Both the position numbers and the translations under genes were made by a program. Below the pieces are notes generated by a model. That model was not told the origin of the DNA, searched no databases, and was given only the letters and a program-made list of their open reading frames with translations. Of a stretch of 34,341 bases of DNA, positions 4,166 through 32,979 are shown in pieces; the stretch's first letter is position 1; each line of letters opens with the position of its first letter. This DNA is from a virus (taxonomy: Duplodnaviria; Heunggongvirae; Uroviricota; Caudoviricetes): IMG/VR virus record IMGVR_UViG_2602041549_000012. The stretch is one strand, 5' to 3'.

Positions 4166-6431
4166 AGCCTCCGGGCGTTTTGTCCCTCCGTCAGCATTTG
4201 CCGCAGGCACCGGTGAGACGTTTACCGGTGCTTATGCATGGAACGCGCCACGCGAGGCCGTCGGGCGCGAAAGACCCCTTACACGTGACGAGATGCGTCA
4301 GGTGCAAGGTGTTTTATCCACGATTAACCGCCTGCCTTACTTTTTGCGCTCGCTGTTTACTTCACGCTATGACTACATCAGGCGCAATAAAAGCCCGGTG
4401 CACGGGTTTTATTTCCTCACATCCACTTTTCAGCGTCGTTTATGGCCGCGCATTGAGCGCGTGAATCAGCGCCATGAAATGAACACCGATGCGTCGTTGC
4501 TGTTTCTGGCAGAGCGCGACCAGTATGCGCGCCTGCCGGGAATGAATGACAAGGAGCTGAAAAAGTTTGCTGCCCGTATCTCATCGCAGCTTTTCATGAT
4601 GTATGAGGAACTCTGCGATGCCTGGGTGGATGCGCATGGCGAGAAAGAATCGCTGTTTACGGATGAGGCGCAGGCTCACCTCTATGGTCATGTTGCTGGC
4701 GCTGCACGTGCTTTCAATATTTCCCCTCTCTACTGGAAAAAATACCGTAAAGGACAGATGACCACGAGGCAGGCATATTCTGCCATTGCCCGTCTGTTTA
4801 ACGATGAGTGGTGGACTCATCAGCTTAAAGGCCAGCGTATGCGCTGGCATGAGGCGTTACTGATAGCTGTCGGGGAGGTCAATAAAGACCGTTCTCCTTA
4901 TGCCAGTAAACATGCCATTCGGGATGTGCGTGCGCGCCGCCAGGCAAATCTGGAATTTCTTAAATCGTGTGACCTTGAAAACAGGGAAACCGGCGAGCGC
5001 ATCGACCTTATCAGTAAGGTGATGGGCAGTATTTCTAATCCTGAAATTCGCCGGATGGAGCTGATGAACACCATTGCCGGTATTGAGCGTTACGCCGCCT
5101 CAGAGGGTGATGTGGGGATGTTTATCACGCTTACCGCGCCGTCAAAGTATCACCCGACACGTCAGGTTGGAAAAGGCGAAAATAAAACCGTCCAGCTTAA
5201 TCACGGCTGGAATGATGAGGCATTTAATCCAAAGGATGCGCAGCGTTATCTCTGCCGTATCTGGAGCCTGATGCGCACGGCATTCAAGGATAATGATTTA
5301 CAGGTCTACGGTTTGCGAGTCGTCGAGCCACACCACGACGGAACGCCGCACTGGCATATGATGCTTTTTTGTAATCCACGCCAGCGTAACCAGATTATCG
5401 AAATCATGCATCGCTATGCGCTCAAAGAGGATGGCGACGAAAGAGGAGCCGCGCGAAACCGTTTTCAGGCAAAACACCTTAACCGGGGCGGTGCTGCGGG
5501 ATATATCGCGAAATACATTTCAAAAAATATCGACGGCTATGCACTGGATGGTCAGCTCGATAACGATACCGGCAGACCGCTGAAAGATACTGCGGCGGCT
5601 GTTACCGCATGGGCGTCAACGTGGCGCATCCCGCAATTTAAAACGGTTGGCCTGCCGACAATGGGAGCTTACCGTGAGCTACGTAAATTGCCTCGCGGCG
5701 TCAGCATTGCTGATGAATTTGACGAACGCGTGGAGGCTGCACGCGCCGCCGCAGACAGTGGCGATTTTGCGCTGTATATCAGCGCGCAGGGCGGGGCAAA
5801 TGTCCCGCGCGATTGTCAGACTGTCAGGGTCGCCCGTAGCCCGTCGGATGACGTTAACGAATACGAGGAAGAAGTCGAGAGAGTGGTCGGCATTTACGCG
5901 CCGCATCTCGGCGCGCGTCATATTCATATCACCAGAACGACGGACTGGCGCATTGTGCCGAAAGTGCCGGTCGTTGAGCCTTTGACTTTAAAAAGCGGCA
6001 TCGCCGCGCCTCGGAGTCCTGTCAATAACTGTGGAAAGCTCACCGGTAGTGATGCTTCGTTACCGGCTCCCACACCTTCTGAGCACGCCGCCGCAGTGCT
6101 TAATCTGGTTGATGACGGTGTTATCGAATGGAATGACCAGGAGGTCGTGAGGGCGCTCAGGGGCGAATTAAAACACGACCTGAGAACACCAAACCGTCAG
6201 CAAAGAAGCGGAAGCCCGTTAAAACCGCATGAAATAGCGCCATCGGCCAGACTGACCCGGTCGGAACGAATGCAAATTACCCGTATCCGCGTTGACCTTG
6301 CTCAGAACGGTATCAGGCCGCAGCGATGGGAGCTTGAGGCGCTGGCGCGTGGGGCAACCGTAAATTATGATGGGAAAAAATTCACGTATCCGGTTGCTGA
6401 TGAGTGGCCGGGGTTCTCGTTACCCATTTGA
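4155..6431 (+). CDS. A: Replication initiator A (rolling-circle nickase)
   Basis: Large ORF at the P2 A position. Contains the HWHMMLF region, consistent with rolling-circle initiator HUH/tyrosine motifs. The track start at 4113 is TTG, so ATG 4155 (MAVKASGRF) is preferred. Confidence 0.85.
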   Translation: MAVKASGRFVPPSAFAAGTGETFTGAYAWNAPREAVGRERPLTRDEMRQVQGVLSTINRLPYFLRSLFTSRYDYIRRNKSPVHGFYFLTSTFQRRLWPRIERVNQRHEMNTDASLLFLAERDQYARLPGMNDKELKKFAARISSQLFMMYEELCDAWVDAHGEKESLFTDEAQAHLYGHVAGAARAFNISPLYWKKYRKGQMTTRQAYSAIARLFNDEWWTHQLKGQRMRWHEALLIAVGEVNKDRSPYASKHAIRDVRARRQANLEFLKSCDLENRETGERIDLISKVMGSISNPEIRRMELMNTIAGIERYAASEGDVGMFITLTAPSKYHPTRQVGKGENKTVQLNHGWNDEAFNPKDAQRYLCRIWSLMRTAFKDNDLQVYGLRVVEPHHDGTPHWHMMLFCNPRQRNQIIEIMHRYALKEDGDERGAARNRFQAKHLNRGGAAGYIAKYISKNIDGYALDGQLDNDTGRPLKDTAAAVTAWASTWRIPQFKTVGLPTMGAYRELRKLPRGVSIADEFDERVEAARAAADSGDFALYISAQGGANVPRDCQTVRVARSPSDDVNEYEEEVERVVGIYAPHLGARHIHITRTTDWRIVPKVPVVEPLTLKSGIAAPRSPVNNCGKLTGSDASLPAPTPSEHAAAVLNLVDDGVIEWNDQEVVRALRGELKHDLRTPNRQQRSGSPLKPHEIAPSARLTRSERMQITRIRVDLAQNGIRPQRWELEALARGATVNYDGKKFTYPVADEWPGFSLPI

Positions 6432-6691
6432 GTAAAAACACAACGTGATTTGATATGGCATTGAATGGCTTATGCGGAGCAGTTATGGGGCAGCAGAAGG
6501 TCAATAGCATGCTGAATTAGAAGGCTAAATGCTATTGAGTGACTAGCATGTCGGTAAGGACAGCCGTTTGATCCGGGTCATAAAAGGCCATCCATTTAGT
6601 CTAATAAAATCATTGCGGGTAACCTTATGTCGACGCATAATTCGTCTTGAGCGAAGTCTTGTCAGTCTTTCATCGTATTGATGATGGGCGC

Positions 6692-6721
6692 AAAAAAACC
6701 ACCCTGGCAGGTGGTTTTTTT
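6692..6721. terminator. Bidirectional rho-independent terminator (A7-hairpin-T7)
   Basis: aaaaaaa-CCACCctggcaGGTGG-ttttttt. The hairpin is flanked by an A-run and a T-run, so it can terminate transcripts on both strands. Confidence 0.55.
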
Positions 6722-6733
6722 GTTTGAAGCATA

Positions 6734-6847
6734 TTAAAGCATAATGCTGACATTGATATTACTGACGTTTACTGACAAACCACTCGGACTACCGTTTGGA
6801 TAGCCAAAGAGGGCCAGAACGAGAATGCAGTAATAGCATTTCTTCAT
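6734..6847 (-). CDS. Small hydrophobic peptide (37 aa), candidate type I toxin-like or membrane peptide
   Basis: ATG at 6847 is preceded by AGGAGG with 4-nt spacing. The peptide MKKCYYCILVLALFGY... has a hydrophobic N-terminus. The stop is followed immediately by the 6692-6721 terminator. Confidence 0.35.
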   Translation of the reverse strand: MKKCYYCILVLALFGYPNGSPSGLSVNVSNINVSIML

Positions 6848-7325
6848 ATTGCCTCCTGTAAGTAGAGGGCAACTTCCACCGGTATATGCGCTTCTTAGGT
6901 GGAATGACTTTTGAGCGAAGTCTTGCCCTGAAATAATGCTCTGTTTAAACGCAAAGTGATTTGGCATATCACCGAACAGAGAGCCGGAAAAACACAACAT
7001 ATAGTATGTCGTTGTTTCTAGACATACATTCTATGTTGTGTAACAAGGGCTTTGCATTAAACATGTTTGAGATTTTATTGATGTAGCTCAAAGTAAAAAA
7101 CAGAGACTACGGATGATAAGGTCTTGAAAGCAATGTAAATTTTTTAAAGTTGCCAATTGCTTAAAAATGTACAGTTGCGGTATGGCGTACTTAAAAAGCT
7201 ATGCATGCAACAAGTGAATGTTTTTGCATGCGTTGGGGATGTCCGTTCAGGCTGCGTGCGGTCAGGACTGGTGCGGATCCATAGTATCTATGCAACTGCA
7301 TTAAAACCGCCCCGTGAAGCGGGCG

Positions 7326-7344
7326 GGCGAGGCGGGGAAAGCAC
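7326..7344. other. cos: Putative cos site (19-nt cohesive end, GGCGAGGCGGGGAAAGCAC)
   Basis: Exact match to the P2 cohesive-end sequence as I recall it. Sits in a GC-rich island flanked by AT-rich DNA, between A and Q as expected for a prophage. Confidence 0.6.
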
Positions 7345-7380
7345 CGCGCGTAAGATAAACAGAAGAGCGAAGGATTATGG

Positions 7381-7409
7381 TTGAGTATTTGTGTTTTTGT
7401 ACATATGAT
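7381..7409 (+). promoter_or_regulatory. Putative sigma70 promoter for the cargo operon
   Basis: TTGAGT, 17-bp spacer, TATGAT. AAAGGAG RBS at 7440-7446, ahead of the ATG at 7451. Confidence 0.4.
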
Positions 7410-7450
7410 AAAAAGGTGTTTACGCTTAAAAACACATCAAAGGAGATGAT

Positions 7451-8752
7451 ATGGAAAATATAAAGATTGATAAGTTTCTCACTATTCAAAAAGTTGATAT
7501 TCCTCTTAAGAAAGTGAATATATTTATTGGGCCTCAGGCACAGGGGAAAAGTGTCATTGCAAAGCTAATAAAATATTTTAAAGATTACCCTATGGATATA
7601 CTACGAGCTTCAACAGAGGGTAAAACTAAAAGAGATATATTGAAGGAGCAAAAGAATAAGTTTAGTAAAATTTTCCCTCAGCAGTATTGGGCTGATGATG
7701 AGTTTTTTATTGAGTATAGTAATAAGCACTATTGGGTGCGGATTACTAATCGAAAAGATAGCAAAGGGTCATTGAAAATAACCCTTTCTGAGAATTTAAC
7801 GAAGACGATTGCTAAACTTCGTTTGATTGTACGAAAGGATTTAGATGAAAATATTGAGAATTCACTTGCAGAAAGCGTTACGAGAAGACGTAAACGCGGA
7901 ATTGAACATGAATTGCGAGTATGTCTTTCTCTAGGATTGTTTTCAGAACCAGAAACAAAGCTTGAAAGTGTTTTTTATATCCCCGCAGGGCGCTCTTTTT
8001 TTGCTAACTTGCAAAAAAATGTGTTTTCATTTTTATCCAGTAGTATAGAAATTGACTACTTTTTGACAGAGTTTGGTTCTCTGTATGAACAAACAAAAAA
8101 ATTATTTAGCCAAGATTACATGATTAGGATGCTTAGGGGGGCTGTGCCTCAACATGTTAATAAGCTTGTGGAGGAGTTGATTTGCGGAAAATATATAACA
8201 GAAAAGGGTGAGGATTTTATTCGTCATGCTGCTAAAAAGACGAATCTTAACAACTCGAGCTCAGGGCAGCAAGAAGCGTTACCAATGGCTTTAATGTTAT
8301 CCTCATGGCCGTATTTACAGTCTATGACTAGTAAGAGTTTTATTATTGAGGAGCCGGAGGCTCATCTGTTTCCTTCTGCCCAAGCAAAAGTTGTATCTTT
8401 AATAGCCTCAGCGTATAACCAAGCAGAAAGCTATTGTAGCTATACAATAACAACACATAGCCCATATATTCTAAGTGCCTTCAATAATTTGATTCAAGCA
8501 GGTAATGCATTGAAGTGTATTAAGGGCAAGAATAATGCCGATATCGAACGCTTATATAAGCTTGTTCCAGAGTCTCAAATTATTGATTTTGATGATGTGA
8601 CAGCTTATATGGTTAATGCTGGGAAAGTGACGGAAATACTGGATTCCGAACTAAATATATTAGATGCGAATGAAATAGATAGGATTTCCTCTATTTTTTC
8701 AGAGACTTTTGATGCATTGATTGATATCGAATATTCGGCTACTGTGAATTAG
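7451..8752 (+). CDS. Cargo gene 1: ABC-type (AAA_21/AAA_15-like) ATPase, 433 aa
   Basis: Walker A GPQAQGKS near the N-terminus, signature-like SSGQQ, Walker B FIIEEPEAHL, H-loop TTHSP. Strongly AT-rich compared with the phage backbone. Confidence 0.8.
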   Translation: MENIKIDKFLTIQKVDIPLKKVNIFIGPQAQGKSVIAKLIKYFKDYPMDILRASTEGKTKRDILKEQKNKFSKIFPQQYWADDEFFIEYSNKHYWVRITNRKDSKGSLKITLSENLTKTIAKLRLIVRKDLDENIENSLAESVTRRRKRGIEHELRVCLSLGLFSEPETKLESVFYIPAGRSFFANLQKNVFSFLSSSIEIDYFLTEFGSLYEQTKKLFSQDYMIRMLRGAVPQHVNKLVEELICGKYITEKGEDFIRHAAKKTNLNNSSSGQQEALPMALMLSSWPYLQSMTSKSFIIEEPEAHLFPSAQAKVVSLIASAYNQAESYCSYTITTHSPYILSAFNNLIQAGNALKCIKGKNNADIERLYKLVPESQIIDFDDVTAYMVNAGKVTEILDSELNILDANEIDRISSIFSETFDALIDIEYSATVN

Positions 8753-8760
8753 GTGATTGA

Positions 8761-9198
8761 ATGTGTAAAAATTGCAAAGGAAAAACAAAAAATAAAATCA
8801 TTGTGCTATCTGATAAAGGAACGTCAACGCAATTGTCAGTCATAAATGATAATGAGTTGGAGGTTGAGCATAAGTTAATAGATGGTTGCGCTATTGTTGT
8901 TGGGGAGCGGTGTGATCATTATTTGAAGATTTATAACAATCAGGATGTTTCACATCTTTTTGTTGAACTTAAAGGAAGTGATGTTGAAAAAGCTGTTAAA
9001 CAGATAGTGACAACTTTAAAGTCAGGTGTGATTAATGTAGGTGCTAAAGAAAAAAAACATGGTGCTATTGTTAGCACTAGGAATCCGCTAAACTCAACAG
9101 AAACCAATAAGTTAAAGAAGAAAATTCTTTTGAGTGACGGAGTGAATTTGCATTTCTATAAAATGAAGGCGCAGCAAAAAATAACTTCTTTTACATGA
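8761..9198 (+). CDS. Cargo gene 2: small partner protein (145 aa), possible PD-(D/E)xK-like nuclease
   Basis: Starts 9 nt after the gene 1 stop, with an AGGTGA RBS. Has an N-terminal CxxC and a D...hhhhELK arrangement (GERCDHYL...HLFVELKG). Lys-rich and AT-rich. Confidence 0.65.
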   Translation: MCKNCKGKTKNKIIVLSDKGTSTQLSVINDNELEVEHKLIDGCAIVVGERCDHYLKIYNNQDVSHLFVELKGSDVEKAVKQIVTTLKSGVINVGAKEKKHGAIVSTRNPLNSTETNKLKKKILLSDGVNLHFYKMKAQQKITSFT

Positions 9199-9211
9199 AG
9201 TGTTCTCTTGT

Positions 9212-9236
9212 ACAGGCATGCATTTGCATGCCTGTC
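9212..9236. terminator. Perfect 11-bp-stem hairpin downstream of the cargo operon
   Basis: ACAGGCATGCA-ttt-TGCATGCCTGT, 14 nt after the gene 2 stop. No clean T-run, so it is a weak terminator call. Confidence 0.4.
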
Positions 9237-9301
9237 GTGTAATCTTTTACACTATATTTGTGTTGGTTCTAATCTTGTTATGTGTTTGTTTCGGTGATGG
9301 A

Positions 9302-10321
9302 TCATAATGAATAAGTTCGAAAGCGAAATACATCTTCGCCAACCCAACAGTTAATTTCTTTACATCGCTCTTGGAGGAACGTTAGCTCGTTGCGTACAAA
9401 GACTTGTGCTGCTTTTGTTACATCTCCAAATCCTCCTGTGTTGTTGGGCATCATTCCTATCATTTGGGGAGGCACGCGATGAGCACTCATTAGATCTTCA
9501 GCACTTGCTTTTTTGATATTAAAAAAATCGTCCTTCGTTGCCACTTCACTGAGCGGGATAATTTTAATGCCGTCGGCTTTCCCCTGCGGGGCATAGAGAA
9601 ACAGATTTTTAAAGTTATTGCGGCCTTTCGACTTAACCATGTTTTCGCGAAGCATTTCGATATCGTTGCGATCCTGCACGGCATCGGTGACGTACATGAT
9701 GTATCCGGCATGTGCGCCATTTTCGTAATACTTGCGGCGGAACAGCGTGGCTGATTCATTCAGCCAGGCAGAGTTAAGGGCGCTGAGATACTCCGGCAGG
9801 CCGTACAGCTCCTGATTAATATCCGGCTCCAGCAGGTGAAACACGGAGCCGGGCGCGAAGGCTGTCGGCTCGTTGAAGGACGGCACCCACCAGTAAACAT
9901 CCTCTTCCACACCACGGCGGGTATATTTTGCCGGTGAGGTTTCCAGTCTGATGACCTTACCGGTGGTGCTGTAACGCTTTTCCAGAAATGCATTACCGAA
10001 TACCAGAAAATCCAGCACAAAGCGGCTGAAATCCTGTTGCGAAAGCCACGGATGCGGGATAAATGTCGAGGCCAGAATATTACGTTTGACGTAAATCGGT
10101 GAGCTGTGATGCACGGCAGCACGCAGGCTTTTTGCCAGACCGGTAAAGCTGACCGGTGGCTCATACCATCTGCCGTTACTGATGCACTCGACGTAATCCA
10201 GAATGTCACGCCGGTCGAGTACCGGCACCGGCTCACCAAAGGTGAATGCCTCCATTTTCGGGGCGCTGGCGGTCAATGTTTTCACCGCTGGCTGCGGTGT
10301 TTTCCCTTTTTTCTTGCTCAT
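9302..10321 (-). CDS. Q: Portal protein Q
   Basis: 339 aa, first gene after cos on the minus strand. Start overlaps the P stop (TGATG). Synteny with the P2 Q-P pair. Confidence 0.85.
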   Translation of the reverse strand: MSKKKGKTPQPAVKTLTASAPKMEAFTFGEPVPVLDRRDILDYVECISNGRWYEPPVSFTGLAKSLRAAVHHSSPIYVKRNILASTFIPHPWLSQQDFSRFVLDFLVFGNAFLEKRYSTTGKVIRLETSPAKYTRRGVEEDVYWWVPSFNEPTAFAPGSVFHLLEPDINQELYGLPEYLSALNSAWLNESATLFRRKYYENGAHAGYIMYVTDAVQDRNDIEMLRENMVKSKGRNNFKNLFLYAPQGKADGIKIIPLSEVATKDDFFNIKKASAEDLMSAHRVPPQMIGMMPNNTGGFGDVTKAAQVFVRNELTFLQERCKEINCWVGEDVFRFRTYSL

Positions 10322-12093
10322 CAGTAAAACTCCAGAATGGTGGATGTCAGCGGGGTGCTGATACCGGCGGTGAGTGGCTCATTTAACAGGGCGTGCATGG
10401 TCGCCCAGGCGAGGTCGGCGTGGCTGGCTTCCTCGCTGCGGCTGGCCTCATAGGTGGCGCTGCGTCCGCTGCTGGTCATGGTCTTGCGGATAGCCATAAA
10501 CGAGCTGGTGATGTCGGTGGCGCTGACGTCATATTCCAGACAGCCACGGCGAATAACGTCTTTTGCCTTGAGCACCATTGCGGTTTTCATTTCCGGCGTG
10601 TAGCGGATATCGCGCGCGGCGGGATAGAACGAGCGCACGAGCTGGAACACGCCGACACCGAGGCCGGTGGCATCAATACCGATGTATTCGACGTTGTATT
10701 TTTCGGTGAGTTTGCGGATGGATTCCGCCTGGGTGGCAAAGTCCATGCCTTTCCACTGGTGACGCTCAAGTATTCTGAATTTGCCACCGGCCACCACCGG
10801 CGGTGCCAGTACCACGCATCCGGCGCTGTCGCCACGGTGTGACGGGTCGTAACCAATCCATACCGGGCGGGAGCCGAACGGATTGGCGGCAAACGGCGCA
10901 TAGTCTTCCCATTCTTCCAGCGTGTCGACCATGCAGCGTTGCAGCTCCTCGAACGGGAACACCGACGCCTTGTCGTCAACAAATTCACACATGAACAGGT
11001 TTTTAAAATCGTCGGCGCTGTTTTCACGTTTGAGCTGCTCAATGTCGAACAGCGTGCAGCCGCCTTTCAGGGCGTCCTCAATGGTGACAATCTGCCGCCA
11101 CTGGCCGTCCGCACAGAGAAGACCTCCGGCAAGGGCGTTATGACTGACGTCGATTTCCACGCGTTCGGCGGCGCTGGCGCGTCCCCGGTTGAACAGTTCA
11201 CCCGACCAGAACGGGTAGGCGTCGTGCGCCAGCGTGGACGGGGTGGAGAAATAGGTCGAGCGCAGGTGACTCTGTGAGGCCATACCTGATGCCACCTTAC
11301 GCAGTACCTGAAAATTCGGGATCCAGAAAATCTCGTCGACGTACAGGTCGCCGTTATGGCTCTGTGCGGTGTTGGAGTTGGTGCCGAGAAAAATCAGTTT
11401 TGCGCCGTTATTGCCCAGGACAATCGGGTCACCGGTCAGGTCAACGTCAACCAGCCGGGCAAAGGCGATGATGTATTCGCGGAACACATACGCCTGCGTT
11501 TTACTGGCCGACAGAAAAATCTGGTTATGACCGGTTTTCAGGGCGCGCAGCAGCGCCTCGCGGGAAAAATAAAACGTCGCGCCAATCTGGCGGGATTTCA
11601 GGATATCGCGGATGCGGTGCTCAAGCCCGGCGCGATACCAGTGCAACTGATAGTCGAAAGACTGCTCAAAGAAAATCTGCTCCAGCTTTTCGATGGCCTC
11701 GTCACTGAAAAAATTCTTTTTCGGTTTGCGACGCCCGCCTTTGTTGCGGTTAGCGACGTTTGGATTAAGGTCTGCCTCGTTGCCGGTCTGACTGTAGCGG
11801 TTTACCCGTGCCAGTCGTTCAATCTGGCGTCCCAGCAGGTCAATTTCCTTGAAGTCACCGCCGGTTTTCTGCGGTTTGATGATGAGCTGGGTCAGCCGCG
11901 CTTCCAGACTCATTTCGACACGGCTGATGGGGGCAACGCTGTCCCAGCCGTCGCGCTGTTTCCAGCTCTGCACCGTCGGGCGTTTCATCTGCAACATGGC
12001 GGCAATCTGCGGCACGGAAAATCCCTGCCAGTACAGCAGCGCCGCCTGACGACGCGGGTCGTGTAAAAGAGTGGTGTCTGTGGTGATGGTCAT
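10321..12093 (-). CDS. P: Terminase large subunit (ATPase/nuclease) P
   Basis: 590 aa from the internal ATG (MTITTD...), which is the P2 P length as I recall. Divergent from O. Confidence 0.85.
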   Translation of the reverse strand: MTITTDTTLLHDPRRQAALLYWQGFSVPQIAAMLQMKRPTVQSWKQRDGWDSVAPISRVEMSLEARLTQLIIKPQKTGGDFKEIDLLGRQIERLARVNRYSQTGNEADLNPNVANRNKGGRRKPKKNFFSDEAIEKLEQIFFEQSFDYQLHWYRAGLEHRIRDILKSRQIGATFYFSREALLRALKTGHNQIFLSASKTQAYVFREYIIAFARLVDVDLTGDPIVLGNNGAKLIFLGTNSNTAQSHNGDLYVDEIFWIPNFQVLRKVASGMASQSHLRSTYFSTPSTLAHDAYPFWSGELFNRGRASAAERVEIDVSHNALAGGLLCADGQWRQIVTIEDALKGGCTLFDIEQLKRENSADDFKNLFMCEFVDDKASVFPFEELQRCMVDTLEEWEDYAPFAANPFGSRPVWIGYDPSHRGDSAGCVVLAPPVVAGGKFRILERHQWKGMDFATQAESIRKLTEKYNVEYIGIDATGLGVGVFQLVRSFYPAARDIRYTPEMKTAMVLKAKDVIRRGCLEYDVSATDITSSFMAIRKTMTSSGRSATYEASRSEEASHADLAWATMHALLNEPLTAGISTPLTSTILEFY

Positions 12094-17592: not shown

Positions 17593-18022
17593 TGCCGTCA
17601 CGGTGCTGAAAACAAGCCCCGAGATGCTGCGGATATTCGTGGATAACGGGAGTATTGCCTCCACACTGGCGACGTCGCTGTCATTCGAAAAGCGTTACAC
17701 GCTCAATGTCATTGTGACCGACTTTACCGGTGATTTTGACCTGCTCATTGTGCCGGTGCTGGCGTGGCTGCGGGAAAATCAGCCCGACATCATGACCACC
17801 GACGAAGGCCAGAAAAAGGGCTTCACGTTTTATGCGGACATCAACAATGACAGCAGCTTTGATATCAGTATCAGCCTGATGCTGACCGAGCGCACGCTGG
17901 TCAGTGAGGTTGACGGTGCACTGCATGTGAAGAATATCCCGGAACCTCCGCCGCCGGAGCCGGTCACCCGCCCGGTGGAGCTTTATATCAATGGCGAACT
18001 GGTGAGCAAGTGGGATGAATGA
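17555..18022 (+). CDS. R: Tail completion protein R (155 aa)
   Basis: Synteny and length. Confidence 0.8.
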   Translation: MLKPDSLRRALTDAVTVLKTSPEMLRIFVDNGSIASTLATSLSFEKRYTLNVIVTDFTGDFDLLIVPVLAWLRENQPDIMTTDEGQKKGFTFYADINNDSSFDISISLMLTERTLVSEVDGALHVKNIPEPPPPEPVTRPVELYINGELVSKWDE

Positions 18023-18467
18023 GTTTAAGCGTTTTGAAGACCGGCTGACCGGACTGATTGAGTCGCTGTCACCGTCAGGGCGTCGGCGGCTGAGTGCAGA
18101 GCTGGCGAAGCGTCTGCGGCAGAGTCAGCAGCGTCGGGTGATGGCACAGAAAGCCCCGGACGGCACACCCTACGCGCCACGCCAGCAGCAGAGCGCCAGA
18201 AAAAAGACCGGTCGTGTTAAGCGAAAAATGTTTGCGAAACTTATCACCAGTCGTTTTTTGCATATCCGCGCCAGCCCGGAACAGGCATCAATGGAATTTT
18301 ACGGCGGGAAGTCGCCGAAAATCGCCAGTGTGCATCAGTTCGGTCTGTCGGAAGAAACCCGGAAAGACGGTAAGAAAATTGATTATCCGGCGCGTCCTCT
18401 GCTCGGCTTTACCGGTGAGGATGTGCAGATGATTGAAGAGATTATCCTGGCTCACCTTGAGCGTTAG
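18015..18467 (+). CDS. S: Tail completion protein S (150 aa)
   Basis: Synteny and length. Confidence 0.8.
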   Translation: MNEFKRFEDRLTGLIESLSPSGRRRLSAELAKRLRQSQQRRVMAQKAPDGTPYAPRQQQSARKKTGRVKRKMFAKLITSRFLHIRASPEQASMEFYGGKSPKIASVHQFGLSEETRKDGKKIDYPARPLLGFTGEDVQMIEEIILAHLER

Positions 18468-18497
18468 TTTTATCCAGGCAGAGGCTGATGCGCAATT

Positions 18498-18532
18498 AAA
18501 CATTGAGCGGCCATGCTGGTCGCTCAATGTTT
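18498..18532. terminator. Perfect 12-bp-stem hairpin between S and the minus-strand cargo gene
   Basis: AAACATTGAGCG-11 nt-CGCTCAATGTTT. Lies between two convergent gene ends. Confidence 0.4.
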
Positions 18533-18538
18533 AGAGGT

Positions 18539-19324
18539 TTATGAGTGATTTTTATTTGATGCTTTGTATTCTAAAACCTTCTTATTGGCGTAAAAGAATT
18601 TTGTATATGACAGGAATATAACCAGACCTGAAGTGAAATAGACGAGGGATAGTATTAATAATGCTTTTTTGTGACTGTTATTATCTTTAATCTCCTGGCT
18701 TAACCATTCGGAGTCCTCCTCGTTTAGCTGTAAGAGCTTATTGCAGGCGATCTCAGGAAGTGTGTCTTTTATAAATACGTTTTGCAGTCTCTTGCAATCG
18801 GCAAGGGTATAAGTTTTATTAAATTCAACTGCTTTATTTTTGAAGGATAAAAGAACTTTGTCACTATAAACATAGTACATCATGTTTTTATATGGTATGC
18901 CTATGGCATCCCTTACTATAACGGATTGTTCGTTGTGTATGTAACATGCGAGGAGAATGTAAAAAATACAGGCCAGAATTACAATTATTGTTTTAATTAT
19001 GTGTGGTGGTTTTGTTATGTCACCCCAGATGCGAGTAAGGAAAAAATACGATGTTTTTAGTTTTCCATCAATCAGTCCCTGCTGTATCATTCTCACATTT
19101 TCAATGCCTGATACATTGATTCCGTTAATTATTTTAAATAGTTGAATGTCGCGCCACTCGCGGTCAAGTCTTTTTAATTTTTTGTCTGAATATCCAAAAT
19201 TGAAATAATGTGCAATAAGCCTCATAAGGTTACTTTTACCAAAGCTAAAAAATGCTAATACTGCAAAGCTACAAAGGAAAAAAACGATTAGCCCCCACAC
19301 ATTAGTCACATTATAGCTGACCAT
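18539..19324 (-). CDS. AT-rich cargo membrane protein (261 aa, about 3 TM helices) at the S/V junction
   Basis: Opposite strand to the late genes. AAGGAG RBS. Hydrophobic helices at the N-terminus, middle and C-terminus. Strongly AT-rich. Occupies the position of P2 orf30. Confidence 0.7.
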   Translation of the reverse strand: MVSYNVTNVWGLIVFFLCSFAVLAFFSFGKSNLMRLIAHYFNFGYSDKKLKRLDREWRDIQLFKIINGINVSGIENVRMIQQGLIDGKLKTSYFFLTRIWGDITKPPHIIKTIIVILACIFYILLACYIHNEQSVIVRDAIGIPYKNMMYYVYSDKVLLSFKNKAVEFNKTYTLADCKRLQNVFIKDTLPEIACNKLLQLNEEDSEWLSQEIKDNNSHKKALLILSLVYFTSGLVIFLSYTKFFYANKKVLEYKASNKNHS

Positions 19325-19407
19325 TACGCTCTCCTTGAATGTTGTCTGGTAGTTCTACAAATGAATCCAGATAGCATAACTTTTATATATTGTGCAATCT
19401 CACATGC

Positions 19408-20043
19408 ATGAACACTCTCGCAAATATTCAGGAACTCGCGCGCGCACTGCGCAACATGATTCGCACCGGCATTATCGTCGAAACCGACCTTAACGCCGGT
19501 CGCTGCCGCGTGCAGACCGGCGGCATGTGCACCGACTGGCTTCAGTGGCTGACCCATCGCGCAGGACGTTCGCGCACATGGTGGGCACCTTCCGTGGGGG
19601 AACAGGTGCTGATTCTGGCCGTGGGCGGTGAACTCGACACGGCGTTCGTTCTGCCGGGGATTTATTCCGGCGATAACCCCGCGCCGTCTGTGTCGGCGGA
19701 TGCCCTGCATATCCGTTTCCCTGACGGGGCGGTGATTGAATATGAACCCGAAACCAGTGCACTCACGGTAAGCGGAATTAAAACGGCCAGCGTGACGGCT
19801 TCTGATTCTGTTACTGCCACGGTGCCGGTGGTCATGGTGAAAGCATCAACCCGCGTCACCCTGGACACCCCGGAGGTGGTCTGCACCAACAGGCTGATTA
19901 CCGGCACGCTGGAAGTGCAGAAGGGCGGGACGATGCGCGGCAACATTGAACACACCGGCGGTGAACTCTCATCAAACGGTAAGGTACTGCATACCCATAA
20001 ACACCCCGGCGACAGCGGCGGCACAACCGGGAGTCCTTTATGA
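19408..20043 (+). CDS. V: Baseplate spike protein V
   Basis: 211 aa from the internal ATG (MNTLANIQEL). Synteny. Confidence 0.85.
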   Translation: MNTLANIQELARALRNMIRTGIIVETDLNAGRCRVQTGGMCTDWLQWLTHRAGRSRTWWAPSVGEQVLILAVGGELDTAFVLPGIYSGDNPAPSVSADALHIRFPDGAVIEYEPETSALTVSGIKTASVTASDSVTATVPVVMVKASTRVTLDTPEVVCTNRLITGTLEVQKGGTMRGNIEHTGGELSSNGKVLHTHKHPGDSGGTTGSPL

Positions 20044-21833: not shown

Positions 21834-24176
21834 ATGAGCACAAAATTCAGAACCGTTATCACCACTGCCGGTGCAGCAAAGCTGGCAGCGGCAACCGCAC
21901 CGGGAGGGCGGAAGGTCAACATTACCACGATGGCCGTCGGGGATGGCGGTGGTAAATTGCCTGTCCCGGATGCCGGACAGACCGGGCTTATCCACGAAGT
22001 CTGGCGACATGCGCTGAACAAAATCAGCCAGGACAAACGAAACAGTAATTATATTATCGCAGAGCTGGTTATTCCGCCGGAGGTGGGCGGTTTCTGGATG
22101 CGTGAGCTTGGCCTGTACGATGATGCGGGAACGTTAATTGCTGTGGCGAACATGGCCGAAAGTTATAAGCCAGCTCTTGCCGAAGGCTCAGGGCGTTCGC
22201 AGACCTGCCGTATGGTCATCATCGTCAGCAGTGTGACCTCAGTGGCGCTGACCATTGACACCACAACGGTGATGGCGACGCAGGATTACGTTGATGACAA
22301 AATTGCAGAACATGAACAGTCACGACGTCACCCGGACGCCTCGCTGACCGCAAAAGGTTTTACTCAGTTAAGCAGTGCGACCAACAGCACGTCTGAAACA
22401 CTGGCTGCAACGCCAAAGGCGGTAAAGGCCGCATATGACCTTGCTAACGGGAAATATACCGCACAGGACGCCACCACAGCACGAAAAGGCCTTGTCCAGC
22501 TCAGTAGTGCCACCAACAGCACGTCTGAAACGCTCGCCGCAACACCAAAAGCGGTAAAAGCAGCATATGACCTTGCTAACGGGAAATATACCGCACAGGA
22601 CGCCACCACAGCACGAAAAGGCCTTGTCCAGCTCAGTAGTGCCACCAACAGCACGTCTGAAACGCTCGCCGCAACACCAAAAGCGGTAAAAGCAGCATAT
22701 GACCTTGCTAACGGGAAATATACCGCACAGGACGCCACCACAGCGCGAAAAGGCCTTGTTCAGCTCAGTAGCGCCACCAACAGCGATTCTGAAACGCTTG
22801 CGGCAACGCCAAAGGCGGTTAAGACAGCGTATGACCTTGCTAACGGGAAATACACTGCACAGGATGCCACCACAGCGCGAAAAGGTCTTGTCCAGCTCAG
22901 TAGCGCCACCAACAGTGATTCTGAAACGCTGGCTGCAACACCAAAAGCGGTGAAGTCTGCCTATGACAATGCTGAAAAACGTCTTCAGAAAGATCAGAAC
23001 GGTGCGGATATTCCGGGAAAGGATACCTTCACGAAAAATATCGGTGCCTGTCGTGCTTATAGCGGCGCTTTGAGCACTGAAGCCGGAAACTGGACAACCG
23101 CTCAGTTTATTGACTGGCTAGAGTCTCAGGGAGCCTTTAATCATCCTTACTGGATGTGCAAGTGTTCCTGGTCATATGGTAATAACAAAATTATTACCGA
23201 TACTGACTGTGGGACTATTCATCTTGCAGGTTGCGTGATTGAGGTTATGGGCGTTAAAGCAGCAATGACCATTCGTGTGACCACTCCGAGTACATCAAGC
23301 GGTGGTGGTACCACCAGTGCGCAATTCACGTATATCAATCACGGAGCTGATTATGCGCCGGGCTGGCGACGCGACTACAATACGAAAAATAAGCAACCGG
23401 CTTTTGCATTAGGGAAAACAGGAAATACGGTTGCAAATAATAAAGCGGTAGGATGGAACTGGGACAGTGGTGCTTATTGTGCACAGGATGGCGGCGCATC
23501 AAAAATGGTGTTGCATTTTTACACGGGTGAGGGAAGTTGTCCGGCAATGCAGTTTCTTGTGGATTATAAAAACAGGGGGATTTTTTACAGGTCGGCACGT
23601 GATGGGTATGGATTTGAGGCTGACTGGTCAGAGTTTTATACCACATCACGAAAGCCAACACCTGCGGATATTCTTGCTCTGGCATTATCAGGCGGAAGCA
23701 TGTCAGGCAGCATAAAATTTATCAATGATGCCTTCCTGATTTGGGAAAGAAACACTGACTGGGCGAAAATTGGATTTAAAAATGATTCAGATGCTGATTC
23801 TGACTCATACATGTGGTTTGAAACTGGTGATAATGGCAATGAATATTTTAAATGGCGCATCAGGTCTGGCAGCACAACAAAAGATCTGATGACGCTTAAG
23901 TCTGATGCACTACGGGTTACCGGGCAGGTGATACCATCAAATTTCAGCAATTTTGACTCCCGCTATGTCCGGGATATCCGACTTGGTGGTGCCGCCACAT
24001 ACAAACCTGCGAACAATGGCATGACATGGACACATCAGGCACCGTCCGGGTGTGTATATACCGGCATTATTGTTCAGGATACCGGCTCAAACTCTGCCGA
24101 TAACATTGGTGGCGTATATTACAGACCGGTTCAGAAATACATTAACGGGACATGGTACAACGTGGCGCAGGTATAA
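21834..24176 (+). CDS. H: Tail fiber protein H (780 aa) with internal tandem repeats and an AT-rich distal domain
   Basis: Conserved N-terminus (MSTKFRTVITTAGAAKLAAA...). Phage-fibre repeat motif SATNSTSETLAATPKAVK. Longer than P2 H as I recall it. Confidence 0.85.
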   Translation: MSTKFRTVITTAGAAKLAAATAPGGRKVNITTMAVGDGGGKLPVPDAGQTGLIHEVWRHALNKISQDKRNSNYIIAELVIPPEVGGFWMRELGLYDDAGTLIAVANMAESYKPALAEGSGRSQTCRMVIIVSSVTSVALTIDTTTVMATQDYVDDKIAEHEQSRRHPDASLTAKGFTQLSSATNSTSETLAATPKAVKAAYDLANGKYTAQDATTARKGLVQLSSATNSTSETLAATPKAVKAAYDLANGKYTAQDATTARKGLVQLSSATNSTSETLAATPKAVKAAYDLANGKYTAQDATTARKGLVQLSSATNSDSETLAATPKAVKTAYDLANGKYTAQDATTARKGLVQLSSATNSDSETLAATPKAVKSAYDNAEKRLQKDQNGADIPGKDTFTKNIGACRAYSGALSTEAGNWTTAQFIDWLESQGAFNHPYWMCKCSWSYGNNKIITDTDCGTIHLAGCVIEVMGVKAAMTIRVTTPSTSSGGGTTSAQFTYINHGADYAPGWRRDYNTKNKQPAFALGKTGNTVANNKAVGWNWDSGAYCAQDGGASKMVLHFYTGEGSCPAMQFLVDYKNRGIFYRSARDGYGFEADWSEFYTTSRKPTPADILALALSGGSMSGSIKFINDAFLIWERNTDWAKIGFKNDSDADSDSYMWFETGDNGNEYFKWRIRSGSTTKDLMTLKSDALRVTGQVIPSNFSNFDSRYVRDIRLGGAATYKPANNGMTWTHQAPSGCVYTGIIVQDTGSNSADNIGGVYYRPVQKYINGTWYNVAQV
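22353..22967 (+). repeat. Tandem 132-bp (44-aa) repeats inside H, about 4.7 copies
   Basis: Units start at 22353, 22485, 22617, 22749 and 22881 (partial). Units 2 and 3 appear identical at the DNA level. Confidence 0.85.
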
Positions 24177-24840: not shown

Positions 24841-25701
24841 TCATTGTTTTGTATTCTTTAATAACTCTAAGTCGATAACAAGTATACGTGTTGGAATCGG
24901 GGCTTTATTTGGGTACAAACGTTCTCTTTTCAAATTAAAAGCCTCGCCGCTTTTAAATAACCTAGAAATGTCATGACCTTTAAATACATAATCTAAGTTT
25001 GCATCGTTTTCGTGAATTTGATGCAACTCTATTTTTTCATTCTCGGGCACTATGACGTTTGAGTATGATAGAGAAATCACATCTGGCGGTTGTTGTGGTG
25101 TTGTATTTCTATAAATATATTTACTTCTGGTTCCTATACACTCCAGAAGACAACAAAGCGGGTATGTCGTTCTAACCTTGTGTATTGAATTGAAATTCTT
25201 CCCTCTTTTTTTATGTATTGCACTAACTACCACTTCAAGATTAGCAACAGTAATTCCCATTTTTTTTCTTGATATTGGTCTCTTACAATTCCAATACTCA
25301 TCAAGTTCAGCTTGTTTTGGGTAATTGTAAAAAGCATAGAGTGGTACTGCGTTTGTATCTTTAGCGTACTGCTGTAATATATTATGTTGTAAAATTTTAT
25401 TTTTCCCTACCTCATGCTTTAGCTTTTTATATGAATACTGGTTATGATCCATTTTTTTTGCTTGTATTGCATATCGTACCCAACCAGTTTTCCTGCTCCC
25501 AATCCACCATTCCCAATCTGTTCCTTTTGTTGACTCTTTATCTTTGGTGGTTTTCTTTATAGTCACATAACTATAATCTCGCCTAGCAATCTCTAATAAA
25601 ATTAAATCACTAATTGTTTCTTCACCTATAGATAATCCTAATTTTTTTCCATCATGAAGCAAATCCCAGACATACTCAGAAATATCAGAAAAAACACTCA
25701 T
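24841..25701 (-). CDS. AT-rich cargo protein (286 aa) at the G/FI junction, function unknown
   Basis: Minus strand between G and FI, the position of P2 Z/fun. The track start at 25704 is TTG, with an ATG at 25701. Strongly AT-rich. Possible PD-(D/E)xK-like N-terminal motifs (TDWEWWIG ... YAIQAKK). Confidence 0.65.
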   Translation of the reverse strand: MSVFSDISEYVWDLLHDGKKLGLSIGEETISDLILLEIARRDYSYVTIKKTTKDKESTKGTDWEWWIGSRKTGWVRYAIQAKKMDHNQYSYKKLKHEVGKNKILQHNILQQYAKDTNAVPLYAFYNYPKQAELDEYWNCKRPISRKKMGITVANLEVVVSAIHKKRGKNFNSIHKVRTTYPLCCLLECIGTRSKYIYRNTTPQQPPDVISLSYSNVIVPENEKIELHQIHENDANLDYVFKGHDISRLFKSGEAFNLKRERLYPNKAPIPTRILVIDLELLKNTKQ

Positions 25702-25981
25702 CAACTCAACCTATATAAATGATATATAATTCATGTCTAAATATCGTCTTTGCCACTCAAAACTTTAGGGTGATGAAAAAATATAATGAAGTTCAAAAGG
25801 AACTAAGCGTACGATATCCATAATTATACTCTTTCAGACTTTCTGGATAACCCATCTTGGGAAGAGATTCCGCAAAACGCAAACCAACGTCCGCTCCTCG
25901 CTCAAAACAGGCTGTCAGATTTGATAGCGTTTCGGCTATGTAAATAGTCAGTCGGAAAATAAGTGAGTACAAATCAGGACA

Positions 25982-32807: not shown

Positions 32808-32835
32808 TAAAAAATAAGCCCGTGTAAGGGAGATT
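32808..32835. repeat. attR: attR core: 28-bp direct repeat identical to 476-503
   Basis: Exact duplicate of the attL core. Overlaps the 3' terminator of cyaR. Confidence 0.8.
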
Positions 32836-32895
32836 ACACAGGCTAAGGAGGTGGTTCCTGGTACAGCTAGCATTTTATGGGTTATGTTTTTCAGC
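32809..32895 (-). ncRNA. cyaR: CyaR (RyeE) sRNA, Hfq-dependent and CRP-activated
   Basis: The reverse complement reads GCTGAAAAACATAACCCATAAAATGCTAGC...CCTCCTTAGCC...CCCTTACACGGGCTTATTTTTT, matching CyaR as I recall it. It ends in a terminator hairpin plus U-run that coincides with the att core. Confidence 0.8.
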
Positions 32896-32979
32896 GAAAC
32901 GGATGATAACCTTAATAAATGCAGCTGTATGTGATCGGTTTCTAAGAATTTTCCATCCGGGAAAAATAATCGAAATTAA

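What the first reader, a model, noticed from the sequence alone, without database searches (positions are those of the whole stretch)
18468..19407. AT-rich three-helix membrane protein inserted antisense between tail genes S and V
Seen in sequence: a 261-aa minus-strand ORF with three strongly hydrophobic segments and atypical, AT-rich composition, flanked by a perfect 12-bp-stem hairpin on the S side. Established knowledge: P2 carries the non-essential, low-GC orf30 at this position, and single membrane proteins in prophages often act as superinfection-exclusion or abortive-infection factors. Inference: this is a lysogenic-conversion or exclusion gene. Whether it is a P2 orf30 homologue or a different cargo cannot be told without a search.
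Basis: partly seen in the sequence, partly recalled or inferred. Interest (0 to 1): 0.5.

Follow-up and report, generated by a model that had tools for sequence, protein, structure and literature searches.

The report
Phage P2 orf30 membrane-protein gene
This is the long-known but never explained accessory gene orf30 of coliphage P2, a three-helix inner-membrane protein. Very divergent relatives sit in the same slot between two tail genes in P2-like prophages of many enterobacteria, so it probably protects the lysogen at the cell envelope, but that is untested.

Summary
Window 18539-19324 (minus strand) is an intact 261-codon ORF with 34% GC against about 57% in its flanks. It has three hydrophobic helices, a strong ribosome-binding site, and a hairpin with a perfect 12-bp stem core (about 17 pairs in all) between it and tail gene S.

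The window is a complete P2-like prophage of E. coli. P2 annotates orf30 as nonessential, and I found no paper that assigns it a function.

What I add:
- Orf30 belongs to a small Enterobacterales-only family (phrog_2407) distantly tied to Pfam DUF6216.
- Members only 15-31% identical occupy the same antisense S-V slot in at least seven genera.
- They are always AT-rich, with three TM helices and a conserved Cys pair in the predicted periplasmic loop.
- Among close alleles dN/dS is about 0.46, against 0.07-0.13 for the neighbouring tail genes.
- The gene stays intact in decayed prophages, including the one in E. coli B.
- About 30% of the P2-like S-V junctions detected in complete E. coli genomes carry the cassette and about 66% have an empty 66-bp junction.

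There is no match to any known defence, toxin or solved fold. My best guess is a prophage-expressed envelope protection protein analogous to P22 SieA but not homologous to it, with low confidence. The gene is already known, so interest is modest.

The parts
18015..18467 (+). Tail-completion gene S, the left border of the slot
   Evidence: ORF. Corresponds to P2 gpS (8915-9367) in the 98.6%-identical alignment.
18497..18533 (.). Hairpin between the convergent genes S and orf30 (17-nt arms, 3-nt loop, perfect 12-bp core). No clear U-run follows it on either strand.
   Evidence: Inverted repeat I2. Fold -30.2 kcal/mol, z = -4.0 on the + strand and -22.7 kcal/mol, z = -3.5 on the - strand. Maps onto P2's annotated 'putative rho-independent terminator for O operon', 9397-9433.
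18539..19324 (-). orf30 coding sequence, 261 aa, an allele of P2 Orf30 (phrog_2407)
   Evidence: Ten alleles are all intact, with median dN/dS 0.46.
19241..19297 (-). TM helix 1 (aa 10-28). The N-terminus is predicted to be periplasmic.
   Evidence: Hydropathy and charge distribution. Helix 5-28 in the model. dN/dS about 1.2.
19001..19240 (-). Loop 1 (aa 29-108), a predicted cytoplasmic helical domain carrying the family motif D-x-Q-L-F/Y-R/K-x-x-N-G-I-N-V (aa 59-71)
   Evidence: 14 K+R against 7 D+E. G29, Q61, G68, D76 and G87 are conserved or invariant across 28 members. dN/dS 0.33.
18938..19000 (-). TM helix 2 (aa 109-129)
   Evidence: KD maximum 2.77. Helix 109-134 in the model.
18665..18937 (-). 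Loop 2 (aa 130-220), a predicted periplasmic domain with a four-stranded sheet plus helices and the conserved Cys pair C177/C194 (codons at 18794-18796 and 18743-18745)
   Evidence: Strands 141-173 and helices 174-198 in the pLDDT-84.7 model. A Cys pair 14-19 residues apart is present in all 28 members. dN/dS 0.25.
18602..18664 (-). TM helix 3 (aa 221-241), followed by a basic cytoplasmic tail (aa 242-261; 5 K+R, 1 D+E)
19331..19336 (-). Shine-Dalgarno AAGGAG, 6 nt upstream of the orf30 ATG
   Evidence: Read directly from the sequence.
19339..19366 (.). Ogr-type activator-binding site of the late pV promoter. It lies inside the 83-bp orf30-V divergent intergenic region. An ACAAC-containing half-site is conserved at this place in all nine loci compared.
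   Evidence: Mapped from the P2 annotation 10239-10266. Conserved ACAAC element in window, L005, L008-L011, L015, L017 and L018.
19408..20043 (+). Baseplate spike gene V, the right border of the slot
   Evidence: Corresponds to P2 gpV 10308-10943. ORF, where the first listed start is an upstream TTG.

Best explanation
The feature is the P2 accessory gene orf30, carried by a complete P2-like prophage of E. coli. On this identification my confidence is about 0.95.

The gene encodes a three-pass inner-membrane protein. The predicted topology is: N-terminus out; an 80-residue helical loop in the cytoplasm; a roughly 90-residue disulfide-bonded alpha/beta domain in the periplasm; and a short basic tail in the cytoplasm.

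It is a separate transcription unit. It runs antisense between the late O operon (ending with S) and the late V operon, and a hairpin separates it from S. The phage does not need it: P2 annotates it as nonessential, and two thirds of the related E. coli S-V junctions lack it.

The mechanism I consider most likely is inferred, not shown. The protein would be made from the repressed prophage, sit in the inner membrane, and protect the lysogen at the envelope. It would most plausibly interfere with the step at which a foreign phage, or another membrane-attacking agent, crosses the periplasm and inner membrane. This is how P22 SieA and HK97 gp15 work. The target is probably not P2 itself.
For: Identity:
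- 98.9% aa identity to P2 Orf30; flanking DNA 98.6% identical to P2.
- Full-length match to phrog_2407.
- Prophage ends at about 476 and 32835.

A real, constrained gene:
- The chance of an open frame this long is about 2e-9.
- Ten alleles with dS up to 0.23 are all intact. Median dN/dS is 0.46 overall and 0.25-0.33 in the two soluble loops.

Membrane topology:
- Three hydrophobic helices, and the positive-inside rule fits the topology given.
- A Cys pair is conserved in loop 2 of all 28 family members, although overall identity falls to 15%. This is what a periplasmic disulfide would predict.
- The AlphaFold model has pLDDT 84.7 and pTM 0.74.

Accessory but selected:
- In 5426 complete E. coli genomes, 460 carry the cassette and 1024 have the empty 66-bp junction.
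- Members 22-31% identical to it sit in the same antisense S-V slot in Yersinia, Cronobacter, E. coli, Gibbsiella, Serratia, Sodalis and a metagenomic enterobacterium, while the flanking R, V, W and J are 52-84% identical.
- The gene is intact in decayed prophages. These are the E. coli B lineage (portal to S deleted), SCEC020026 (V truncated), a Serratia rubidaea remnant, and L015, which has two tandem paralogues.

Faster protein evolution than the tail genes: dN is 7-10 times higher.

Parallel with P22 SieA. [quoted passage not shown] It is present in about a third of its phage group, has types only about 25% identical that share one TM topology and a conserved cytoplasmic motif, and occurs only in prophages of Enterobacterales (PMC10883804). 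HK97 gp15 is likewise an inner-membrane moron protein inside a tail operon (PMC3594210).
Against: - No phenotype has ever been attached to orf30 in the papers I could search.
- No match to any PADLOC defence model.
- No consensus sigma-70 promoter upstream. By eye there is only a weak TTGCAC-18-TATCTG that overlaps the pV promoter, so expression in the lysogen is unproven.
- The P2-like phage AC1 carries a 98%-identical orf30. The resistance its lysogen showed against an eight-phage panel was reproduced by its separate TIR locus alone (PMC9122126).
- The functional selection of Vassallo et al. located its seven P2-prophage defence systems at the replication-endonuclease/portal slot (four) and the fun slot (three), and none at S-V (PMC9519451).
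- From my own knowledge of classical P2 genetics, not checked here: P2 vir mutants plate on P2 lysogens, and P2 grows on E. coli B, which carries an intact allele. Exclusion of P2 itself is therefore unlikely.
- No homology to SieA (hhalign probability 0.5%).
Confidence: 0.38

Rival explanations
1. Host-fitness or immunity factor unrelated to phage entry. The membrane protein would protect the lysogen against membrane-targeting toxins such as pore-forming colicins, tailocins or contact-dependent effectors. Alternatively it would alter an envelope property useful in the gut.
For: - The gene is retained intact in prophage remnants that can no longer make virions, which points to a benefit for the cell.
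- The TM helices change fastest, with dN/dS about 1.2 for TM1 and about 2.3 for TM3. From my own knowledge, 3-4-TM immunity proteins of pore-forming colicins recognise their toxins within the membrane, so this pattern would fit.
- The known anti-phage phenotypes of P2 lysogens are credited to old, tin and fun in the P2 annotation.
Against: - No sequence or fold similarity to any immunity protein or other characterised family.
- High dN/dS in TM anchors is also expected from weak constraint alone, and the TM3 value rests on few sites.
- Strict linkage to one slot of one phage type is more typical of phage-versus-phage functions.
Confidence: 0.2
2. Abortive-infection effector. The protein would be a latent membrane-disrupting or ion-conducting protein that is triggered by an infecting phage and kills or arrests the cell.
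For: - Single or paired transmembrane proteins are common suicide effectors in known defence systems, as discussed in PMC9122126.
- The gene is AT-rich and has no obvious strong promoter. That is compatible with tight silencing of a potentially toxic product.
Against: - No recognisable sensor or enzymatic domain and no partner gene in the P2-type cassette.
- No PADLOC hit.
- Stable carriage in hundreds of genomes, including remnants without any regulator nearby.
- The two soluble domains, not the helices, carry the conserved residues.
Confidence: 0.12
3. Accessory function in P2's own lytic cycle. The gene would be expressed late from the region shared with the Ogr-activated pV promoter. It might, for example, tune lysis timing or envelope state, or prevent wasteful re-adsorption or re-injection by progeny.
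For: - The orf30 start is only 15-42 bp from the activator-binding site of pV, in an 83-bp divergent region.
- The divergent arrangement next to V, with the conserved ACAAC element, is kept in all nine loci compared.
Against: - The gene is antisense to both late operons.
- It is absent from about two thirds of the related E. coli S-V junctions and from viable phages such as L-413C.
- P2 annotates it as nonessential.
- It is kept in remnants that lack capsid and lysis genes.
Confidence: 0.1
4. A decaying or selfish passenger with no current function.
For: - No phenotype is known.
- dN/dS is 4-7 times that of the neighbouring genes.
- The AT-rich composition is typical of horizontally acquired DNA.
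Against: - The reading frame is intact in all ten alleles and in every distant homologue examined.
- dN/dS is well below 1 in both loops.
- The topology, the cytoplasmic motif and the Cys pair are kept down to 15% identity across at least seven genera.
Confidence: 0.03

Closest known systems
Bacteriophage P2 Orf30 (AAD03281; phrog_2407)
   Same: Essentially the same gene. It is 98.9% identical over all 261 residues, with the same position, orientation, hairpin and flanking S and V genes.
   Different: Three amino-acid differences. The prophage in this window carries different cargo at the two other variable slots, old/tin and Z/fun.
Pfam DUF6216 (PF19723), an uncharacterised membrane-protein family
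   Same: 9 of 28 Orf30-family members hit it. The Sodalis member P0029 matches full length at 28.9 bits, above the 27.3-bit cut-off, and it sits in the same S-V slot.
   Different: The window protein itself does not hit the model even at E<=10, so the link is transitive only. The name carries no functional information, and only one unrelated paper mentions it.
Phage P22 SieA (inner-membrane superinfection-exclusion protein)
   Same: Analogous biology. SieA is a prophage-borne polytopic inner-membrane protein at a fixed place among virion genes. About one third of its phage group carries it. Its sequence types are only about 25% identical but share one TM topology and a conserved cytoplasmic motif, and it occurs only in Enterobacterales prophages (PMC10883804).
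   Different: No detectable homology (hhalign probability 0.5%). SieA has 164 aa and lacks a sizeable periplasmic domain. SieA excludes its own phage type, which is unlikely for Orf30. SieA has an annotated promoter and a proven phenotype, and Orf30 has neither.
HK97 gp15 moron (YebO-like inner-membrane Sie protein)
   Same: An atypical-GC, self-contained gene inserted within a tail-gene region, whose inner-membrane product blocks DNA entry (PMC3594210).
   Different: gp15 is described there as a small protein with mostly non-prophage chromosomal homologues (YebO family). Orf30 is 261 aa with three TM helices, and its homologues are almost all in P2-like prophages. No sequence comparison was run.
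P2 lysogenic-conversion genes old, tin and fun(Z)
   Same: Nonessential genes of the same phage, transcribed against or apart from the late operons at variable slots.
   Different: Those three have defined targets (lambda, T-even phages, T5) and sit in highly polymorphic hotspots with many unrelated cargoes. In the enterobacterial prophages I sampled through family members, the S-V slot held one protein family, and in E. coli it is otherwise mostly empty.

Membership tests
P2 Orf30 / phrog_2407 | Full-length sequence match to the family profile and to P2 Orf30 | tested here: met
   phrog_2407 at E = 4.9e-148, covering 1-261 of 261. 98.9% identity to AF063097 Orf30.
P2 Orf30 / phrog_2407 | Located antisense between tail genes S and V of a P2-like genome | tested here: met
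   The same slot holds family members in 9 of 11 loci of distant members.
Pfam DUF6216 (PF19723) | Score at or above the Pfam gathering threshold (27.3 bits) | tested here: not met
   The window protein is not listed even at E<=10. Family member P0029 reaches 28.9 bits full length, and 9 of 28 members hit at E<0.1. The relationship is supported only transitively.
Moron (self-contained accessory unit in a phage genome) | Present in some and absent in other closely related genomes, at a precise position | tested here: met
   L-413C and many other phages have a 66-bp junction instead. In E. coli genomes, 460 carry the cassette and 1024 have the empty junction.
Moron (self-contained accessory unit in a phage genome) | Base composition different from the neighbours | tested here: met
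   GC 0.34 against 0.55-0.60. The same contrast is seen in six distant loci.
Moron (self-contained accessory unit in a phage genome) | Own promoter and terminator allowing expression from the repressed prophage | tested here: inconclusive
   A hairpin is present downstream but has no clear U-run. No consensus sigma-70 promoter is found upstream. No expression data were found.
P22 SieA-type superinfection exclusion proteins | Sequence homology to SieA | tested here: not met
   hhalign of P22 SieA against the 28-member Orf30 profile gives probability 0.5% and E = 0.11.
P22 SieA-type superinfection exclusion proteins | Blocks DNA injection by superinfecting phage when expressed alone | not testable with these tools
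   Needs plating and DNA-entry assays.
Known anti-phage defence systems (PADLOC-DB 2.0) | Match to any defence-protein model | tested here: not met
   0 families at E<=10.
Pore-forming-colicin immunity proteins | Sequence or fold similarity to a characterised family, and protection against a cognate toxin | tested here: inconclusive
   No Pfam hit to any characterised family. No PDB sequence or fold match. I ran no specific comparison with colicin immunity sequences, and protection cannot be tested here.

The most novel reading that the evidence does not exclude
The Orf30/DUF6216-like proteins could be a previously unrecognised family of inner-membrane protection proteins that is tied to the S-V slot of P2-like phages across Enterobacterales. 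They would be functionally analogous to P22 SieA or HK97 gp15. The conserved periplasmic disulfide-bonded domain and cytoplasmic motif would form the working parts, and the fast-evolving sequence would reflect an arms race with other phages or membrane-attacking agents. Orf30 would then be the fourth lysogenic-conversion function of P2, unnoticed for decades.
Probability: 0.3. Interest if true: 0.55.

Novelty: already known. Interest (0 to 1): 0.3.

Why it matters
P2 is a textbook phage, and orf30 is one of its few sizeable genes that the annotation still leaves without a function. About 8.5% of complete E. coli genomes carry it, including the E. coli B lineage. I expect the laboratory B derivatives BL21 and REL606 to carry it too, but I did not check them.

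The results turn "orphan AT-rich ORF" into a defined and testable candidate: one divergent protein family occupies the same slot in many enterobacterial genera, evolves fast but under constraint, and outlives the decay of its prophage. If it proves to be an envelope-level exclusion or immunity factor, it would add a new protein family to the prophage-encoded defence repertoire. It would also explain why the S-V slot behaves differently from the highly polymorphic old/tin and Z/fun hotspots. If it has no phenotype, it stays a curiosity.

Tried and rejected
- Pfam, NCBIfam and PADLOC scans of the window protein gave nothing significant.
- A profile search of PDB sequences gave only a chance 0.085 hit.
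- The afdb50 library was unavailable.
- The genome-contig scan with the six-sequence alignment found no confirmed locus, and the 28-sequence alignment was too divergent to seed a scan.
- tblastn with two distant members (P0017, P0042) shows that only the P2 type occurs in isolated phages.
- phiCTX orf15, which sits in the same slot, is unrelated and lies on the other strand.
- P22 SieA homology was rejected.
- I found no flanking direct repeats that would indicate transposition or site-specific insertion. The breakpoints coincide exactly with the S stop codon and the V start codon.
- No Rfam family lies in the region.
- Literature searches by gene name, accession numbers, DUF6216 and P2 transcriptomics gave no functional data. 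The Christie and Calendar P2 review was not held.
- I considered a lipoprotein or signal-peptide reading of the N-terminus and rejected it. There is no basic n-region, no lipobox, and the segment is not conserved across the family.
Full report
**1. The observation**

The region has about 34% G+C against 55-60% in the flanking genes R, S, V, W and J. With the ORF's own base composition a stop codon is expected every 13-14 codons, so an open frame of 261 codons has a chance probability of about 2e-9.

Three segments (aa 10-28, 109-129, 221-241) reach Kyte-Doolittle 19-residue means of 2.3-2.8. The hairpin on the S side is real. Its 17-nt arms lie at 18497-18513 and 18517-18533, with a perfect 12-bp core. 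It folds at -30.2 kcal/mol with z = -4.0. An AAGGAG Shine-Dalgarno sequence lies 6 nt before the ATG.

The finding's span, 18468-19407, is exactly the interval from the stop codon of S to the start codon of V.

**2. Identity**

tblastn against 50,697 phage records gives P2 Orf30 at 98.9% identity over the whole length. The surrounding 3 kb is 98.6% identical to P2. The protein matches PHROG 2407 (unknown function) end to end.

P2's GenBank record calls Orf30 "nonessential". It annotates the hairpin as the putative rho-independent terminator of the late O operon. It also places the activator-binding site of the late pV promoter at what is window 19339-19366, 15-42 bp from the orf30 start.

The window as a whole is a complete P2-like prophage of E. 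coli. Its attL is near 476 and attR near 32835, at the 3' end of the sRNA gene cyaR beside yegQ.

**3. What is known about it**

The papers I could search describe orf30 only as an ORF of unknown function inserted between S and V. They note that it is absent from W-phi and L-413C and that other ORFs replace it in other P2-like phages. They list the locus among three sites where P2-like phages carry horizontally acquired genes (PMC2771037, PMC3091744, PMC6823313).

Recent surveys of P2 defence hotspots concentrate on the old/tin and Z/fun loci (PMC9122126; bioRxiv 10.1101/2024.10.15.618418; PMC9519451). One 2026 survey mentions a minor hotspot "within the tail genes" without discussing orf30 (PMC13586616). 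Searches by accession number, PHROG number or DUF6216 found nothing functional.

**4. The protein**

By the positive-inside rule the topology is as follows:
- the N-terminus, with no charged residue, lies outside;
- loop 1 (aa 29-108; 14 K+R, 7 D+E) is cytoplasmic;
- loop 2 (aa 130-220; 13 K+R, 13 D+E) is periplasmic;
- the basic C-tail is cytoplasmic.

An AlphaFold model built on a 28-sequence family alignment is confident (pLDDT 84.7, pTM 0.74). It shows a helical loop 1, a four-stranded sheet plus short helices in loop 2, and a long helix running through TM3.

Every one of the 28 family members has two cysteines 14-19 residues apart in loop 2, although overall identity falls to 15%. That is the pattern expected for a structural disulfide, and it independently supports a periplasmic loop 2.

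Across the family G68, G87, C194 and I212 are invariant. G29, Q61, D76 and K254 are nearly invariant. Loop 1 carries a D-x-Q-L-F/Y-R/K-x-x-N-G-I-N-V motif. No solved or predicted viral structure resembles the model, and there is no PDB sequence relative.

**5. The family and its context**

A word-indexed search of 5.8 billion proteins found only five clusters. An exhaustive profile search of 1.84 billion representatives found 44 proteins, 36 of them at E<1e-10, and those aligning over the whole profile are 249-271 aa. All named sources are Enterobacterales: Escherichia, Enterobacter, Yersinia, Cronobacter, Gibbsiella, Serratia and Sodalis. All 28 aligned members hit phrog_2407.

Nine of the 28 hit Pfam DUF6216. 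One of them, Sodalis P0029, matches full length above the gathering threshold. The family is therefore a divergent branch of, or neighbour to, that uncharacterised Pfam family. The window protein itself does not reach the model.

The main new result is positional. I could inspect the loci of eleven distant members.
- In seven the homologue lies antisense between gpS and gpV of a P2-like prophage. These are from Yersinia, Cronobacter, E. coli, Gibbsiella, a metagenomic enterobacterium, Serratia ureilytica and Sodalis.
- In two it lies beside V in a decayed remnant. L015 has two tandem paralogues, and Serratia rubidaea L018 has only ogr, V, the homologue and a fragment of S left.
- Two loci were uninformative: a contig end and short contigs.

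In six of these loci the homologue is 22-31% identical to the window protein. R, V, W and J are 52-84% identical and S is 43-50%. The homologue always has 32-35% GC in a 52-60% GC backbone. Extra genes sometimes share the slot: a DUF4062 protein in Gibbsiella, and two small genes including a DUF7480 protein in Cronobacter. phiCTX holds an unrelated gene there.

**6. Population data in E. coli**

Of 5426 complete genomes, 460 carry at least 80% of the orf30 cassette, always on the chromosome. Another 1024 carry the alternative 66-bp S-V junction seen in L-413C, and 1555 match some part of that junction. So roughly 30% of the detectable P2-like S-V junctions are occupied and about 66% are empty.

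The two forms differ over the whole intergenic segment, and the breakpoints fall exactly at the S stop and the V start. There are no flanking repeats. This points to exchange by recombination in the conserved flanking genes, not to site-specific insertion.

Intact orf30 alleles persist in defective prophages. In the E. coli B lineage the portal-to-S region is deleted. In strain SCEC020026 gene V is truncated.

**7. Selection**

Among ten alleles (dS up to 0.23) all reading frames are intact. Median dN/dS is 0.46, against 0.065 for S, 0.13 for V, 0.10 for R and 0.10 for W. dN is 7-10 times higher than in those genes.

By region, loops 1 and 2 and the C-tail are constrained (0.33, 0.25, 0.30). 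TM1, TM2 and TM3 are not (1.2, 0.5, 2.3; the TM3 value rests on few sites).

The gene therefore encodes a protein whose soluble domains matter. It evolves much faster than the virion genes. I cannot separate relaxed constraint from diversifying selection with these data.

**8. Mechanism**

What is shown:
- it is a real, constrained, polytopic membrane protein;
- it is a separate antisense unit;
- the phage does not need it;
- it is tied to one slot of P2-like genomes across genera;
- it is retained when the prophage decays.

What is inferred: expression from the prophage, inner-membrane location, and a protective role.

The closest biological analogue I could document is P22 SieA (PMC10883804). 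[quoted passage not shown] It is present in 22 of 66 P22-like phages. Its three types are about 25% identical and share one TM topology and a conserved cytoplasmic motif. It is confined to prophages of Enterobacterales, and it blocks DNA injection. HK97 gp15, an inner-membrane moron within a tail operon, is a second analogue (PMC3594210).

Orf30 is not homologous to SieA (hhalign probability 0.5%), so this is an analogy only. I commit to [quoted passage not shown] at about 0.38.

Counter-evidence:
- no consensus promoter;
- no PADLOC hit;
- the AC1 lysogen, whose orf30 is 98% identical, showed only phenotypes that its TIR locus alone reproduced;
- the seven P2-prophage systems recovered in the functional selection of PMC9519451 sat at the replication-endonuclease/portal and fun slots, not at S-V;
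- from my own knowledge of classical P2 genetics, P2 vir plates on P2 lysogens and P2 grows on E. coli B. Any exclusion is therefore unlikely to be aimed at P2 itself.

Rival explanations and my confidence in each:
- immunity or fitness factor against membrane-acting toxins, 0.20;
- abortive-infection membrane effector, 0.12;
- late-cycle accessory function linked to the shared pV region, 0.10;
- functionless passenger, 0.03, which the conservation data contradict.

**9. The orf30-V intergenic region**

It is 83 bp long and contains the pV activator site. An ACAAC-containing half-site is conserved at the equivalent place in all nine loci compared. In some distant loci, such as the two Serratia ones, an extended -10-like element (TGnTAATAT or TGnTACAAT) lies between that site and the homologue's ribosome-binding site. 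The P2 type has no room for one there, and only a weak TTGCAC-18-TATCTG lies further upstream, overlapping the pV core promoter. How and when orf30 is transcribed is therefore open. Overlap with pV suggests that activating pV could shut orf30 off, but that is speculation.

**10. Verdict**

The function is still unknown. The family-level picture assembled here makes orf30 a reasonable, cheap experimental target. That picture has four parts: one divergent family fixed in the S-V slot across Enterobacterales, a conserved periplasmic Cys pair and cytoplasmic motif, fast but constrained evolution, and survival in prophage remnants including E. coli B. Interest 0.3.

Noticed in passing
window 32812-32897 (minus), with attR near 32835 and attL near 476: The prophage is integrated at the 3' end of the sRNA gene cyaR (Rfam RF00112, 100.7 bits) next to yegQ/trhP. 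From my own knowledge, this is the site where E. coli K-12 carries the P2 remnant ogrK.
   Followed up: partly
window 6418-9501 (the old/tin slot between gene A and the portal gene Q): P2's old and tin are replaced by two genes. One is a 433-aa AAA_15/AAA_21 ATPase at 7451-8752 (best PADLOC hits PDC-M29A at 2e-31 and AriA at 2e-25). The other is a 145-aa protein at 8761-9198 (weak PDC-M29B hit, 3e-4). Together they look like a candidate two-gene defence system. About 1 kb upstream (6431-7450) has no ORF longer than 88 aa.
   Followed up: partly
window 24841-25704 (minus), the Z/fun slot between G and FI: P2's fun(Z) is replaced by a 287-aa protein of Pfam DUF6615 (E = 2e-16), which has no PADLOC match.
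   Followed up: partly
window 22374-22951, inside tail-fibre gene H (21834-24176): There are 4.4 tandem copies of a 132-bp (44-aa) unit, 92% matching. Four staggered window segments all align to P2 13252-13458, so the repeat looks expanded relative to P2. The H protein here is 780 aa.
   Followed up: no
L002 and L027 (E. coli B lineage), orf30 allele at L027 9072-9857: The defective P2-like prophage of the E. coli B lineage has lost everything from the portal gene to S. It keeps an intact orf30 allele (WP_000490543.1) and carries an ABC-three-component system in the old/tin slot. I expect the laboratory B derivatives to express or at least carry this gene, but I did not check BL21 or REL606.
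   Followed up: partly
L015 4001-4771 and 4900-5658: Two tandem, divergent Orf30-family paralogues (P0021 and P0044) lie beside V in a decayed P2-like remnant next to a chemoreceptor gene. hhalign probability is 100% for the second copy.
   Followed up: partly
L010 4877-6214 and L008 3965-4899: In some genera the S-V slot holds extra genes beside the Orf30 homologue: a 445-aa DUF4062 protein in Gibbsiella, and 180-aa plus 133-aa (DUF7480) proteins in Cronobacter. The slot can therefore accumulate additional cargo.
   Followed up: partly
L016 969-1034 (L-413C S-V junction) against window 18468-19407: The 66-bp empty junction shares no sequence with the P2-type intergenic region, not even the stretch just upstream of V where P2 has its pV promoter. 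It contains its own GC-rich hairpin (GCCGCCGG...CCGGCGGC). The two junction types may therefore transcribe the V operon differently.
   Followed up: no
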